Positions 22,250 through 25,481 of a stretch of DNA of 64,000 nt are shown here, in pieces. The notes below the pieces were generated by a model, which was not told where the DNA came from, ran no database searches, and saw only the letters and a list, made by a program, of their open reading frames with translations. Every line of letters begins with the position of its first letter. Within the stretch, counting starts at the first letter, position 1. This DNA is from Candidatus Multivorans sp. (GTDB lineage: Bacteria > Acidobacteriota > Thermoanaerobaculia > Multivoradales > Multivoraceae): assembly GCA_965224025.1 (NCBI GenBank), contig OZ245033.1, forward strand, positions 576,001 through 640,000. The letters run 5' to 3'. The translations under genes and the position numbers were made by a program.

Positions 22250-22696
22250 TCAGTTGCCCTCAGACGCAAGCCACGCCTCGGTCTCGACGACGATCAGCTC
22301 GCGATAGTCGCCCCGCATCTCCCAGGTACCCATGAAGCCCTTGGGCACGAGAAAGGTGTCGCCCGCCTTGTAGGTCGCCTTGTCCCCGTCGACGTGAGTC
22401 AGCGTGACTTCCCCGTCCAGCACCAACACGAACTCGTCATACGGGAACGGAAACGGGATATCCAGGAGAGCCGGCGCCGCGGCGTAGATGGCCACGACCA
22501 CTTCCCCTTGATGGAGGATGCTCTGCCAATGCTCGCTCTTGCCCTCCAGGACCAACTCGGCCGGGAACGGCTCCGCGCTCTCGAGCTGGGCCCGAAGCAA
22601 CTTCCCCGCGTCGAGCGGAAGGATCTCGGGAGCGGCAAACGCCTGCGAGGGCGACAGGATGCACAGCAGGACGGCGAATCGACAGAACACCTTCAT
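22250..22696 (-). CDS. secreted cupin (DUF861/EutQ-like)
   Basis: DEFVLVLDGEVTL...YKAGDTFLVPKGFMGTW; signal peptide. Confidence 0.8.
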   Translation of the reverse strand: MKVFCRFAVLLCILSPSQAFAAPEILPLDAGKLLRAQLESAEPFPAELVLEGKSEHWQSILHQGEVVVAIYAAAPALLDIPFPFPYDEFVLVLDGEVTLTHVDGDKATYKAGDTFLVPKGFMGTWEMRGDYRELIVVETEAWLASEGN

Positions 22697-22779
22697 CAGG
22701 GAGCCTCCAGGTGTGCGCCTGAGCGCAGCGGGAGAATTGTCTGGCGTCAACAAAGGACGACGCACGATATCCAAACCGC

Positions 22780-22850
22780 GGAGCCGGCCTTGCGGCCGGC
22801 GCGTCTACCTGGCCGCCCACGGCGGCAGTCGGCGAGGACGCCGGCGCACC
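22780..22850 (+). repeat. REP/MITE-like copy interrupted by IS110 (continues at 24481-24489)
   Basis: GGAGCCGGCCTTGCGGCCGGCGCGT..CCTGGCCGCC..GGCGGCAG..GCGCACC|CAGTACGGC aligns with 52740-52820. Confidence 0.8.
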
Positions 22851-22864
22851 TGTACCTTTCCGGG

Positions 22865-23140
22865 ATGCATTCTGGCGTGTCGTTGAGAGAGGTGGAATGG
22901 ACCAGTAGCCGGACCGGCAGCTTCCGCAGCCGAGACCGCCGGTCGGTTGCGTCTCCGGCCTGCCGGAGTCACTGAAGGAAAGTCGGCAAGCAGCCAGGAG
23001 CGACCACCGGCGTACTGTGCTTCGAGCACCTGGCTGGGACCCGTGCCCTGGCTGCTTTGCCGCGTTGGACGCCCAGTGGAGAGTCAGTGCCTTAGAGCAC
23101 CAGTACAGGTACGGGCAGGCAACGCGGCATGCCGACCAGG
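22865..23140 (+). ncRNA. putative IS110 bridge RNA
   Basis: 5' stem-loop 22914-22966; target loop closed by CAGCCAGG/CCTGGCTG with guides 23007-23015 and 23034-23038; donor loop closed by CGCGTTG/CAACGCG with guides 23076-23085 and 23103-23109; boundaries approximate. Confidence 0.8.
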
Positions 23141-23171
23141 CAACACTACCGCAAGGGAGAAGGAGGACGAG

Positions 23172-24424
23172 ATGATCAGGACGTGGTTCGCCGGCGTGGA
23201 CTGGGGGTCCGAAACCCACCATGTGTGTTTGCTGGATCGGGACGGCAAGGTGAGGGGGGAGCGGGCGTTCGACCACAGCGGCAAGGGACTTGCCGCCATG
23301 GCCGACTGGCTCCTTGGACATACCCGACCGACGTCTCCGGACGAGATCGGCGTCGCCATCGAGGTGCCGCACGGACCGGTGGTCGAGACTCTCCTGGAGC
23401 GGGGCTTCGCCGTGCATTCGATCAACCCCAAGCAGCTCGACCGCTTCAGGGACCGCTTCTCCGTCGCCGGCGCCAAGGATGACCGCCGCGATGCACGGGC
23501 GCTCGCCGCCGCGCTTCGCACCGACCCCGAGTGCCTGAACCGCGTGCAACCATCCGATGCAGCCATCGTGATGCTGCGCGAGGTGTCCCGCGGCCGCAAG
23601 CAGTTGGTCGGCCAGAAGAACCGCCTGGAGAACCAGGTCCGCGACCAGCTCTGGCGCTACTACCCGCAGTTTCTCGCCGTGGTCAAGAACGAGGTGTCGG
23701 CGCCCTTCGCGCTGGCCTTGTGGCGACTGGCGCCGACCCCCGGCAAGGCTCGACGGCTGCGCGAAGCCACGCTCGCCAAACTGCTCAAGGAACACCGCAT
23801 CCGGCGCCTGACCTCCGCCCAACTGCGCGATCAACTGCGGGCCGAGCCGATCGCCGTTTCCCCGGACACCGTTAAGGCCGCCGTCGAACACATAGGACTC
23901 CTCCGGCCGGTGCTCGACACCGTCTGCCGCCAACTCGCCGACGCCGACAAGCGGCTGGAGCGGATGACCCGCGCACTCGAGGCCCCGGCCCAACGGGAAA
24001 ACGACGACGACTCCCCTAAGCCGAGCGACGCCGCCATCCTCAGGTCGCTGCCCGGACTCGGCAAGGTCGGCCTCGCCACCCTGCTCTCCGAGGCCGATCA
24101 AAGCCTGGGCCGCAGAGACCACGAGGCACTGCGTTGCCTCTGCGGAGTGGCGCCGGTGACCGTCAAGTCCGGCAAGAAGCTCATCGTCATGCGACGACTC
24201 GCCGCCAACGAACACCTCAGCGACGCCGTCTATCACTGGGGACGAGTCGCCATCCAGCATGACCCGATCAGCCGCGCCAAGTACGACGCCATGAAAGCCC
24301 AGGGAAAAACGCACGGACGCGCCATCAGACAACTCGTCGACCGACTCCTCGGCGTCGCCTGCGCCATGCTCCGAGGCCGACTCTCTTCGACCCCAACAAG
24401 CGATGCCATGCCCAGGTCGCATGA
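23172..24424 (+). CDS. IS110-family DEDD recombinase/transposase (1-nt frameshift near the C-terminus)
   Basis: AGVDWG, AIEVP, AKDDRRDA, SLPGLG, CGVAPVTVKSGK; RBS AAGGAGG; a typical tail TLFDP...* lies in the shifted frame at 24380-24424. Confidence 0.9.
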
Positions 24425-24459
24425 CCTCCCTGACCCGCAGCAGCCTCCCCAAAACACAC

Positions 24460-24465
24460 TTGCTA
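24460..24465 (+). promoter_or_regulatory. -35 half of the IS110 circle-junction promoter
   Basis: TTGCTA in the right end lies exactly 17 nt from TACCTT (22853-22858) when the ends are joined through one CC core. Confidence 0.75.
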
Positions 24466-24566
24466 AAGGGTGGAGAGTCCCAGTACGGCCCGTCGACGTT
24501 TGTCTGACGCACAACAGCCGCTCGATAGAGATAGCCTCGTTCATTCAAAACCGAAGGAGAACTCCC

Positions 24567-25481
24567 ATGAGCCATCGAGTCGTTCGTCTCTCCGGATCCC
24601 TGGGCGCCGAGGTCCACGATCTGCCGCTGGCCGAGGTCGGCCCCGACGAGGCCGCGACGATCCGGGCGTTGCTGCTGGACCACCAGGTCCTGTTCTTTCC
24701 CGACCAGCACCTGACCGTGGAGCAGCACGTGAAGTTCGGGCAGCACTTCGGCGAGCTCGAAGGGCACCCGCACCTGAACAACCCGTTCCTCGACCACCCC
24801 GAGGTGTTCGAGCTGGTGGCGACCCGCGGTGGCGTCGCCGACGAGTGGCACAGCGACATCAGCTTCCAGGAGAGCCCGTCGGTGATGGCGATCCTGAACA
24901 TGGTCAAATGCCCCGAGGTCGGCGGCGACACGATGTGGGCGAACATGTACAAGGCGTACGAGGAGCTGTCGCCGCCACTGCAGGAACTCTGCGAGGGCCT
25001 GACCGCGCTCCACGACGCGACCCCGCACGGCAAGCCGGAGAGGATGACGATCCACCCGGTAGTCCGGGTGCACCCGGAGACCGGCCGCAAGTCGCTGTTC
25101 GTCAACGAGCACTTCACCCGCCGCATCGTCGAGCTCAGCCACGAGGAGAGCGACCACCTGCTCGGCTACCTGACCCGCTGGGCGACGAAGACGCGCTTCA
25201 CCGTCCGCTACCGCTGGCAGCAGGGCACCCTCGCCATGTGGGACAACCGCTGCACCCAACACTTCGTGCTGAACGACTTCGACGAGGAGCGGATCATCCA
25301 GCGGGTCACCGTGATGGGCGACGAGGTCGAGGGAGCGAGCGAGCCCCGCTGGGCGCCCTACGTGCGCGCCCGGCACGCCGGCGCCACCAGCCGCTACGAC
25401 CGGCAGCTCAACAAGTACCTCAAGCGCACCGTCCAGTCGCTTGAGTCGAACGCAAAGAAGGAAGTCGCGCTGGAGATGTAG
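24567..25481 (+). CDS. TauD/TfdA-family alpha-ketoglutarate dioxygenase
   Basis: LGAEV, WHSD, GGDTMWAN, HPVVRVHPETGRKSLFVN, WDNRCTQH; own RBS AAGGAG. Confidence 0.92.
   Translation: MSHRVVRLSGSLGAEVHDLPLAEVGPDEAATIRALLLDHQVLFFPDQHLTVEQHVKFGQHFGELEGHPHLNNPFLDHPEVFELVATRGGVADEWHSDISFQESPSVMAILNMVKCPEVGGDTMWANMYKAYEELSPPLQELCEGLTALHDATPHGKPERMTIHPVVRVHPETGRKSLFVNEHFTRRIVELSHEESDHLLGYLTRWATKTRFTVRYRWQQGTLAMWDNRCTQHFVLNDFDEERIIQRVTVMGDEVEGASEPRWAPYVRARHAGATSRYDRQLNKYLKRTVQSLESNAKKEVALEM

What the first reader, a model, noticed from the sequence alone, without database searches (positions are those of the whole stretch)
22841..24484. IS110 element whose bridge RNA guides can be read directly from the sequence
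Seen: two parallel internal loops, each split by a GTGC-loop-GCAC-C hairpin. Target loop: CCGGCGTAC (23007-23015) matches the left flank CCGGCGCAC (22841-22849) 8/9, the mismatch being a U-G wobble; CTGGG (23034-23038) is the reverse complement of core plus right flank CCCAG (24479-24483). Donor loop: GTGGAGAGTC (23076-23085) is identical to the right end 24470-24479; GTACAGG (23103-23109) is the reverse complement of core plus left end CCTGTAC (22849-22855). Known: IS110 recombinases such as IS621 use a bispecific bridge RNA from the left non-coding end, with a CT core in IS621. Inference: a programmable RNA-guided recombinase with a CC core and an approximately 417-aa protein from a little-studied lineage; whether this ortholog is already catalogued cannot be checked here.
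Basis: partly seen in the sequence, partly recalled or inferred. Interest (0 to 1): 0.9.

Follow-up and report, generated by a model that had tools for sequence, protein, structure and literature searches.

The report
IS110 element with readable bridge RNA
This is one slightly damaged copy of a multi-copy IS110-type jumping gene whose guide RNA visibly spells out both its own ends and its insertion site, a correct reading of a system known since 2024.

Summary
All eight strings sit at the stated coordinates. Window 22851-24478 is an IS110-group insertion sequence bounded by CC cores. Its genome holds 14 full-length copies plus fragments, each at ..CCGGCG(C/T)A-CC-[IS]-CC-C(A/G)G(T/C). Another 44 empty sites match CCGGCGYACCCAG, mostly at the foot of REP-like hairpins. 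The protein has both IS110 domains and meets NCBIfam "IS110 family RNA-guided transposase". D10, E64, D104, D107 and S333 are invariant. The left end folds into two stem-loops with internal loops: 99% of cells pair and 11 pairs show compensatory change. In 80 related loci from Acidobacteriota and others, the target guides change with the flanks (0 of 20000 permutations reach the observed match). Handshake guides are readable too, and the core is always CC. The window copy is defective: it lacks one base near the 3' end of the gene, a frameshift, and 79 nt of the left end. No RNA data were available. Verdict: a new member of a known kind (bridge-RNA IS110), with moderate-to-low interest. The CC core and the ~417-aa acidobacterial clade are the only mildly new points.

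The parts
22841..22848 (+). Left target (LT) CCGGCGCA, the 3' foot of a REP-like hairpin
   Evidence: Same 8-mer (C/T at position 7) left of all 16 copies that keep a left end. Matches the LTG 7 of 8, the mismatch being U-G.
22849..22850 (+). Left copy of the CC core dinucleotide
   Evidence: CC flanks both ends of every copy and of every ortholog parsed.
22851..23171 (+). Non-coding left end (LE), 321 nt here and 400 nt in most sister copies
   Evidence: Alignment of 16 left ends.
22853..22858 (+). TACCTT, a -10-like hexamer that would pair with the right-end -35 only in the excised circle (inferred junction promoter)
   Evidence: TTGCTA, 17 nt, TACCTT across RE-CC-LE. The cTTGCaAA / TTGACA box sits at the same spacing in all 28 distinct RE/LE pairs.
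22910..22911 (+). Junction of a 79-nt deletion relative to 12 of 14 full-length copies
   Evidence: alignment. table 5 shows 81 letters between 22911 and 22914 in a contig of run X4.
22982..23136 (+). Bridge RNA structured region: closing stem, target-binding stem-loop, donor-binding stem-loop
   Evidence: Fold, consensus fold of 23 orthologs, pair counts 99% paired with 11 compensatory pairs and 0 of 500 shuffles.
23007..23015 (+). Left target guide (LTG) CCGGCGUAC, reading LT plus the first core C
23017..23029 (+). Hairpin capping the target-binding loop
   Evidence: Conserved at about -155 from the ATG in orthologs.
23032..23038 (+). Right target guide (RTG) GGCUGGG; the last GG reads the core, and CUG/GCUG reads the right target CAG(T/C)
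23039..23040 (+). Handshake guide AC of the target-binding loop, complementary to the last two right-end bases GT
   Evidence: Position 1 fits in 19 of 19 guide sets. Concept from PMC11208158.
23076..23085 (+). Left donor guide (LDG) GUGGAGAGUC, identical to the right end plus the first core C
   Evidence: It changes with the right end in orthologs (GTGGAGAGT / GTGGGAAGT / GTGGGGAGT).
23087..23100 (+). Hairpin capping the donor-binding loop
   Evidence: GTGC..GCAC changes to GCGC..GCGC, a compensatory pair in 7 of 23 sequences.
23103..23109 (+). Right donor guide (RDG) GUACAGG, the reverse complement of core plus LE start CCTGTAC
23110..23111 (+). Handshake guide UA of the donor-binding loop; the first base complements the last LT base
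   Evidence: Fits in 21 of 22 guide sets, with T/G/C tracking A/C/G.
23172..24424 (+). DEDD/Ser recombinase gene, 417 aa in intact copies; here frameshifted by one missing base after 24379, so the frame runs out of the element
   Evidence: (table 4).
24460..24465 (+). TTGCTA, a -35-like hexamer in the right end (inferred junction promoter half)
24470..24478 (+). Right-end terminus / left donor (LD) GTGGAGAGT
24479..24480 (+). Right copy of the CC core
24481..24484 (+). Right target (RT) CAGT
   Evidence: C(A/G)G(T/C) lies right of all 15 copies that keep a right end.

Best explanation
Window 22851-24478 is one copy of an IS110-group insertion sequence: 1628 bp here, about 1708 bp in most sister copies. 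It sits in a genome whose nearest relatives of this element are MAGs labelled Candidatus Multivorans (Thermoanaerobaculia, Acidobacteria).

Shown here. It is flanked by a CC core on each side. It has no terminal inverted repeats. It always sits in the site CCGGCG(C/T)A-CC-C(A/G)G(T/C). It encodes a DEDD/Ser recombinase. Its left end carries a conserved two-stem-loop RNA-like structure, and the internal loops of that structure repeat the element's ends and its target.

Inferred by homology with IS621. The left end is transcribed into a bridge RNA of roughly 155 nt or more. [quoted passage not shown] In the second loop, the LDG (23076-23085) and RDG (23103-23109) do the same with the RE-CC-LE junction of the excised circle. 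A recombinase tetramer cuts and exchanges strands at CC through a phosphoserine intermediate (S333, with D10, E64, D104 and D107). Two-base handshake guides (23039-40 and 23110-11) pair with the incoming strand after the first exchange. The circle junction assembles a sigma-70-like promoter (TTGCTA, 17 nt, TACCTT) that drives the RNA and the gene.

The window copy cannot supply full-length recombinase, because of the frameshift after 24379. It also lacks 79 nt of left-end leader. It could move only with protein from one of the 10 full-length copies that have an intact 417-aa ORF. Its bridge RNA region itself is intact.
For: Coordinates and strings verified.

Copies and target: 14 full-length copies and several fragments in the genome. 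Homology ends exactly at the CC cores and every copy has the same target motif. There are 44 empty CCGGCGYACCCAG sites, against my rough hand estimate of about 3 expected from base composition, which came from no call. 32 of 44 empty and 15 of 17 occupied sites lie at the foot of an inverted repeat of 5 bp or more.

Protein: PF01548 at 1.5e-32 and PF02371 at 1.1e-12. NF033542 'IS110 family RNA-guided transposase' scores 174 bits against a cutoff of 140. IS621 (8wt6) matches at 2e-11 and ISCro4 at 1.5e-9, with the catalytic residues aligned. D10, E64, D104, D107 and S333 are invariant in 11 orthologs down to 56% identity.

RNA: the fold gives two stem-loops with internal loops, z = -2.1. In the consensus of 23 distinct orthologs, 99.0% of cells pair, 11 of 31 pairs have compensatory changes, 0 of 500 shuffles reach the observed values on 4 of 5 measures (8 of 500 on the fifth, further pair types), and slid controls give 27-43% paired.

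Guides: 92 loci were parsed, giving 22 distinct guide sets. LTG and RTG match their own flanks at a mean of 11.0 of 13 positions, against 5.9 for guides paired with flanks of unlike sets. 0 of 20000 permutations reach the observed sum. Examples: L068 GCGATC-CC-ATTTG, L072 GTGGACG-CC-TCCCC, L107 AAGCGGAT-CC 10 of 10, and L056-60 RTG CGGT with flanks CGGT in 5 of 5.

Handshake guides fit in 21 of 22 and 19 of 19 guide sets, and pair with their own cognate DNA in 0 of 19 and 1 of 22. The -35 and -10 halves are conserved across the junction.
Against: No RNA evidence: no listed holder run is on record as RNA. Rfam 15 has no matching family.

The promoter scan found no sigma-70-like promoter and no terminator inside the integrated left end of a full copy. 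The junction promoter is only a 4 of 6 plus 3 of 6 hexamer match and rests on conservation.

Within the genome, the C/U polymorphism of the LTG does not track the C/T polymorphism of the left flank: T-flank in 2 of 5 U-copies against 2 of 10 C-copies, and two copies have a C-A mismatch.

Right-target positions 4-5 often mismatch in this genome. Three loci (L052, L089, L093) have right flanks unlike their RTG.

The right end was located by searching for the LDG, so the LDG-RE match is partly circular, although the CC and the RTG-predicted flank that follow it are independent. Guide sets are phylogenetically related, so the permutation figure overstates independence. The window copy is a pseudogene.
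Confidence: 0.93

Rival explanations
1. The internal repeats are DNA-level sites rather than RNA guides. On this view they are subterminal recombinase-binding repeats, or a folded single-stranded left end, that happen to resemble the ends and the target. Target choice is then made by the protein or by DNA-DNA pairing.
For: No RNA was observed. Sequence comparison alone cannot tell RNA from single-stranded DNA pairing. The donor guides barely vary.
Against: G-U pairs are tolerated in the stems (for example 9 GU at columns 19/86) and at guide-target positions (U-G and G-T in this copy). That fits an RNA. The protein is homologous to IS621 and ISCro4, whose RNA-bound structures are solved (PMC11208158 passages). 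The architecture matches the published one loop for loop, handshake positions included.
Confidence: 0.03
2. The element is a fossil family. The guides are readable but the family is no longer mobile in this genome, and the copies spread long ago or by gene conversion only.
For: 4 of 14 full-length copies are frameshifted. The same late frameshift occurs in three copies that differ elsewhere, and the pattern is mosaic. There are also fragments, an orphan RNA copy and a split copy.
Against: 10 of 14 full-length copies keep an intact 417-aa ORF and copies are 97-99% identical. Closely related genomes carry 4 to 17 copies at different sites. This rival concerns present activity, not what the element is.
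Confidence: 0.15
3. The four matches in the window are coincidence in GC-rich sequence.
For: The individual matches are short (5-10 nt) and the genome is 67.6% G+C.
Against: The matches predict the exact boundaries found independently from 14 copies. They recur with other sequences in orthologs, with 0 of 20000 permutations reaching the observed match.
Confidence: 0.005

Closest known systems
IS621 (E. coli) bridge recombinase and bridge RNA (Durrant et al. 2024, PMC11208160; Hiraizumi et al. 2024, PMC11208158; PDB 8wt6)
   Same: DEDD RuvC-like domain plus Tnp domain with a catalytic Ser. The RNA is encoded in the left end, upstream of the gene. Two stem-loops have internal loops split by a hairpin. 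[quoted passage not shown] There is a 2-nt core and handshake dinucleotides 3' of the RTG and RDG. A -35 in the right end and a -10 in the left end would join in the circle. The target is REP-like.
   Different: The proteins match only at E 2e-11 in two stretches. This protein is 417 aa against 328 residues for the 8wt6 chain, the extra length lying between the two domains. The core is CC, not CT. For IS621 and its relatives the second core base T is described as almost invariant and read by the G63 backbone (passage). Here the corresponding stretch is E-V/T-P-x-G-P and the second base is C in all 22 guide sets. The 5' leader before the RNA is longer, about 130-210 nt in the Multivorans-type copies. 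The host is a GC-rich acidobacterium.
ISCro4 / IS622 (Citrobacter rodentium; Perry et al. preprint 10.1101/2025.05.14.653916; PDB 9t56)
   Same: Same family and same RNA logic. Matches at E 1.5e-9.
   Different: As for IS621: a CT core and a 341-residue chain (9t56). It has been tested in human cells, whereas this element is untested.
REP-targeting IS110 elements of Pseudomonas putida (ISPpu9, PMC12288879; ISPpu10, bioRxiv 10.64898/2026.03.19.712850). I saw only search-listing abstracts.
   Same: Multi-copy IS110 members inserted into repetitive extragenic palindromes. Extra stand-alone copies of an element-associated small RNA are reported for ISPpu9. Here there is one orphan bridge-RNA copy.
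   Different: Different hosts and sequences. In ISPpu9 the extra small RNA lies downstream of the transposase gene. No sequence comparison was made here.
IS1111 group / seekRNA (Siddiquee et al. 2024, PMC11187229; search listing only)
   Same: DEDD transposase with RNA-guided target choice.
   Different: IS1111 members carry the RNA in a long right end and have 7-17 bp subterminal inverted repeats. Here the RNA is in the long left end (321-400 nt) and the right end is 54 nt, which is the IS110-group layout.

Membership tests
IS110 family (IS110 group) insertion sequence | N-terminal DEDD RuvC-like transposase domain (PF01548) | tested here: met
   E 1.5e-32, residues 7-165, full profile. D10, E64, D104 and D107 invariant in 11 orthologs and aligned to the IS621 catalytic positions.
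IS110 family (IS110 group) insertion sequence | C-terminal Tnp domain (PF02371) with a catalytic serine | tested here: met
   E 1.1e-12. S333-G334 is invariant and aligned to the SG of IS621.
IS110 family (IS110 group) insertion sequence | Curated family model above its trusted cutoff | tested here: met
   NF033542 'IS110 family RNA-guided transposase', 174.3 bits against a cutoff of 140.
IS110 family (IS110 group) insertion sequence | Long left end, short right end, no long terminal or subterminal inverted repeats, and a 2-bp core at both junctions | tested here: met
   LE 321-400 nt, RE 54 nt, CC on both sides of all copies. The termini TGTACC... and ...GGAGAGT are not inverted repeats (read directly; no repeat tool was run).
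Bridge-RNA-guided recombination system | Conserved non-coding RNA structure with two internal loops in the non-coding end | tested here: met
   31 pairs, 99% paired, 11 with compensatory change, slid controls 27-43% paired.
Bridge-RNA-guided recombination system | [quoted passage not shown] | tested here: met
   22 guide sets, own flanks 11.0 of 13 against cross 5.9, 0 of 20000 permutations.
Bridge-RNA-guided recombination system | Second loop complementary to both strands of the RE-core-LE donor junction | tested here: met
   The LDG is identical to the right end (10 of 10) and the RDG to core plus LE (7 of 7). The LDG varies with the right end in three forms, though the right end was located using the LDG.
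Bridge-RNA-guided recombination system | Handshake guides that pair with the non-cognate DNA and not with the cognate DNA | tested here: met
   Donor-loop handshake guide fits in 21 of 22 sets and the target-loop one in 19 of 19. Cognate pairing occurs in 0 of 19 and 1 of 22.
Bridge-RNA-guided recombination system | The RNA is transcribed (from a junction promoter in the circle) | not testable with these tools
   No RNA run was listed. Only a conserved -35/-10-like pair across the junction is seen, and no promoter is found in the integrated left end.
Bridge-RNA-guided recombination system | RNA-dependent, reprogrammable recombination | not testable with these tools
   This needs a bench assay.
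IS621-like subgroup (CT core) | CT core with a near-invariant second T | tested here: not met
   The core is CC in all copies and all 22 guide sets. The element is therefore filed under the wider IS110 group, not as an IS621-like element.

The most novel reading that the evidence does not exclude
The ~417-aa clade that this element represents uses an obligate CC core. The clade is common in Acidobacteria MAGs, and 7724 of the 8000 scored protein clusters are related at E<=1e-30. The second core base would then be read differently from the T-specific backbone contact described for IS621. That would make the clade a naturally orthogonal bridge recombinase family that opens CC-core sites. Its defective copies and an orphan bridge-RNA locus would be served in trans by the intact copies. 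I could not see whether CC-core orthologs are already tabulated in the supplements of the 2024-2025 papers.
Probability: 0.4. Interest if true: 0.5.

Novelty: new member of a known kind. Interest (0 to 1): 0.3.

Why it matters
It shows that guides, core, handshake bases, donor and target of a bridge recombinase can be read from raw sequence. It also gives a natural covariation series: 22 guide sets sharing one scaffold and one core. For tool builders it offers a distant ortholog with a CC core and a GC-rich target. The two solved bridge recombinases match it only at E 2e-11 and 1.5e-9. For genome biology it documents a REP-targeting IS family that reaches at least 14-17 full-length copies in two of these acidobacterial genomes, the window's own and G001. 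It does not change what is known about how these elements work.

Tried and rejected
Rfam 15 scan of 22700-24600 at E<=1 gave only a chance miRNA match (E 0.4), so no bridge RNA family was found there.

The promoter/terminator scan of a full-length left end (L003 1300-1800) found nothing. My idea that the 79-nt module missing from the window copy holds two terminator-like hairpins (stems followed by TTTT) did not meet the tool's criteria, so I dropped it as a claim.

RNA evidence: no RNA holder was listed. I laid Logan contigs of four runs. They confirmed the majority forms at the two lesions of the window copy (a C behind 24379, and 81 letters between 22911 and 22914). They showed no circle junction and no empty site. 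Contigs cannot show absence.

Within-genome guide-flank association (LTG C/U against flank C/T) showed no clear link: 2 of 5 against 2 of 10.

The literature search for 'CC core' plus 'bridge RNA' returned 0 papers. This does not show that the core is unreported, because cores of other orthologs may sit in figures or supplements. Supplementary Table 5 and the IS110 database of PMC11208160 could list this ortholog.

I did not run structure prediction, fold search, complex prediction, the atlas search or the representative search. Family membership was already clear and they would not have changed the verdict.

My first regex parse of the target loop missed the window's own group and some others. 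I widened it. L076 and L106 never parsed: their target loop is replaced by other sequence, and they were left out of all counts. Seven events without a located right end were left out, leaving 61 of 68 events and 19 of 22 guide sets. For L105 the script took the inner of two right ends. The outer one is followed by the predicted flank, but the counts were not recomputed.
Full report
**Observation.** I read 22600-24700 and located every string by script. The region folds into two stem-loops, each with a large internal loop interrupted by a short GTGC...GCAC hairpin (-98.7 kcal/mol, z = -2.1, 6 of 200 shuffles fold at least as well). On its own that fold is weak evidence.

**Boundaries and copies.** The window is G000:C1:576001-640000, in a 5.14-Mb genome of 67.6% G+C. 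BLAST of the element against the genome gives 14 full-length copies, two large complementary fragments and three small fragments.
- Aligning the ends shows that similarity stops exactly at a CC on each side.
- Every copy with a left end is preceded by CCGGCG(C/T)A-CC (16 of 16).
- Every copy with a right end is followed by CC-C(A/G)G(T/C) (15 of 15; two have CGG).
- These are precisely the boundaries that the guide matches predict.
- The genome holds 44 further unoccupied CCGGCGYACCCAG sites. My rough hand estimate from base composition is about 3.
- 32 of 44 empty and 15 of 17 occupied sites lie at the 3' foot of an inverted repeat of 5 bp or more, typically GCCGGCG-N4-CGCCGGC. The target is therefore a REP-like repeat. 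REP targeting by IS110-family elements is already reported (ISPpu9 abstract; reference title).

**State of the window copy.** 10 of 14 full-length copies encode a 417-aa protein that ends 54 nt before the right terminus.
- The window copy, c535k and c3855k share one missing base (after window 24379). Contigs of three public runs carry the extra C (table 4). The frame then runs out of the element.
- c2020k and the 13k fragment share an early frameshift.
- The window copy also lacks 79 nt of the left end, between 22910 and 22911, that 12 of 14 full-length copies have. c3855k lacks an overlapping 91 nt.
- The three copies with the late frameshift differ in left-end variant, in the 79-nt module and in the LTG base. 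The family is therefore mosaic, through gene conversion or mobilisation in trans.
- The bridge-RNA region of the window copy is intact.

**Protein.** Both IS110 Pfam domains are present (PF01548 at 1.5e-32, PF02371 at 1.1e-12). NCBIfam NF033542, 'IS110 family RNA-guided transposase', is met at 174 bits against a cutoff of 140. The only solved relatives by sequence are IS621 (2e-11) and ISCro4 (1.5e-9). The DEDD and SG positions are aligned. D10, E64, D104, D107 and S333 are invariant in 11 orthologs down to 56% identity. A word-indexed search found 7724 clusters at E<=1e-30 among 8000 scored. Nearly all come from metagenome assemblies and none carries a name beyond 'transposase'.

**Orthologs and RNA structure.** A scan of one genome per species returned 80 loci:
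- Candidatus Multivorans MAGs (71-93% identity)
- other Thermoanaerobaculia (65%)
- many Vicinamibacterales MAGs (56-59%)
- one Azospirillum canadense
- one gammaproteobacterial MAG
- one further acidobacterial MAG

The two hairpins sit at about -155 and -85 from the start codon in nearly all of them. An alignment of 23 distinct sequences gives a consensus of a closing stem, a target-binding stem-loop and a donor-binding stem-loop.

Counting pairs on that structure:
- 99.0% of 710 cells pair, against 93.1% in shuffles (0 of 500 reach the observed value).
- 11 of 31 pairs have compensatory changes, against 5.7 (0 of 500).
- Slid controls give 27-43% paired.
- The structure was predicted on the same alignment, which favours it. 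The compensatory changes, for example GC to AU in 8-10 sequences at three stem positions and CG to UA in 7 in the donor hairpin, are not explained by that.

**Guide-target covariation.** I parsed the four guide segments and located the ends in 92 of 94 loci (L076 and L106 lack the target loop).
- The 68 distinct insertion events fall into 22 guide sets.
- The left guide follows the left flank. Examples: GGGGTC-CC, GCGATC-CC, GTGGACG-CC, AGGAGC-CC, GTGATAGC-CC, TTCGTC-CC, GCGGAT-CC, CCGCGCA-CC and CCGGCGYA-CC.
- The right guide follows the right flank. Examples: CC-TTTTC, CC-ATTTG, CC-TCCCC, CC-TTGTC, CC-CTCCC, CC-CGGT and CC-CAG.
- Own-flank matches average 11.0 of 13. Guides set against flanks of unlike sets average 5.9. 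No permutation of 20000 reaches the observed sum (61 events and 19 sets with both flanks).
- The sets are related by descent, so this is not a true probability, but the pattern is plain by eye.
- The core is CC in every case.
- Exceptions: L052, L089 and L093 have right flanks unlike their guide. In L089 and L093 the flank begins TGTAC, like the element's own left end. That recalls the half-match events described in two 2026 preprints, of which I saw only the abstracts.

**Handshake guides.** Hiraizumi et al. (passages) describe two bases 3' of the RTG and RDG. These must pair with the other DNA after strand exchange and must not pair with their own.
- Here the base after the RDG's GG is T, G or C where the last left-target base is A, C or G (21 of 22 sets). 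It never fits its own donor (0 of 19).
- The bases after the RTG's GG are AC, or AT in two guide sets; AC is complementary to the right end's final GT, and the first base fits in 19 of 19 sets, but this position does not vary.

**Junction promoter.** The right end carries cTTGCtAA, which is TTGACA in two orthologs. Exactly 17 nt later, across the CC, the left end has TACCTT (TACCCT or TACCGT in others). This arrangement is kept in all 28 distinct RE/LE pairs. It mirrors the sigma-70-like junction promoter reported for IS621 (passage). It is an inference from conservation. The generic scan finds no promoter in the integrated left end.

**Fine detail in this genome.** The window RNA would match CCGGCGTA-CC-CAGC perfectly, and that site is the flank of copies c535k and c743k. 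Its own flank, CCGGCGCA-CC-CAGT, needs a U-G and a G-T wobble. The LTG is U in 5 copies and C in 10, but this does not track the flank base. That is what one expects if RNAs act in trans among copies, as shown for IS621 (passage).

**Comparison and verdict.** Every defining feature that sequence analysis can test is met for the IS110 group and for the bridge-RNA system. Transcription and activity cannot be tested here.
- The element is not IS621-like in one respect, its CC core. For IS621 and its relatives the second core base T is called almost invariant and is read by a backbone contact.
- The protein is about 90 residues longer than the IS621 chain.
- Bridge RNAs were predicted in 85.7% of ISfinder IS110 elements in 2024 (section 12), and 72 orthologs have been screened since (passage).

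This is therefore a new member of a known kind. It is cleanly documented but not surprising. I could not check ISfinder or the papers' supplements for this ortholog.

Noticed in passing
G000:C1:4322373-4322573 (minus strand; L112:974-1174): An orphan 201-nt copy of the bridge-RNA region, 98% identical to window 22929-23129. It has no left terminus, no recombinase gene and no right end. Its RDG reads GTGCAGG instead of GTACAGG and its RTG region reads CTAGCTGGG. It is either a remnant or a stand-alone RNA locus.
   Followed up: partly
G000:C1:13083-13646 and G000:C1:5044239-5045405 (both minus strand): The left part (up to element position ~473) and the right part (from ~470) of one copy lie near the two ends of contig C1. 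If C1 is circular, this copy is split by about 15.35 kb of other DNA, with a 4-nt overlap at the break.
   Followed up: no
window 24379; same position in copies at C1:~536.3 kb and C1:~3853.5 kb: The identical one-base loss (late frameshift) is shared by three copies that differ in left-end variant, in the 79-nt module and in the LTG base. An early frameshift is shared by two others. The family is mosaic, by gene conversion or mobilisation of defective copies in trans.
   Followed up: partly
window 22910/22911; L003:~1425-1503: 12 of 14 full-length copies carry a 79-nt module holding two short hairpins, each followed by TTTT(CC). It lies between the left terminus and the bridge RNA. The window copy lacks it and one other copy lacks an overlapping 91 nt. 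Vicinamibacterales orthologs have no such leader. Its function is unknown, and it did not meet the terminator scan.
   Followed up: partly
L089:3097 and L093:2920: The right flank after RE-CC begins TGTAC(C/T), like the element's own left end, instead of the RTG-predicted sequence. It then continues as unrelated DNA. This is a donor-like half-site insertion.
   Followed up: partly
L105:3097 and 3293: Two right-end termini lie 196 nt apart. Only the outer one is followed by the RTG-predicted flank CC-TCCTC.
   Followed up: partly
L111 (G001:C1:1373800-1377200), about 1027-1547: A decayed copy: the bridge-RNA region (90% identical) is followed by short, partly inverted scraps of the recombinase gene.
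   Followed up: partly
G002 and G003: A second, diverged bridge-RNA family (78-81% identical over 155 nt) is present in 3 and 12 copies beside the main one.
   Followed up: no
window 22947-25481: Because of the frameshift, the recombinase frame runs on through the right end into the downstream gene. That gene starts at 24568 (MSHRVVRLSG...) and I only guessed it to be TauD-like by eye; it was not scanned. This creates an artefactual 844-aa ORF. A 623-aa fused product was called by a public gene caller (P0003).
   Followed up: no
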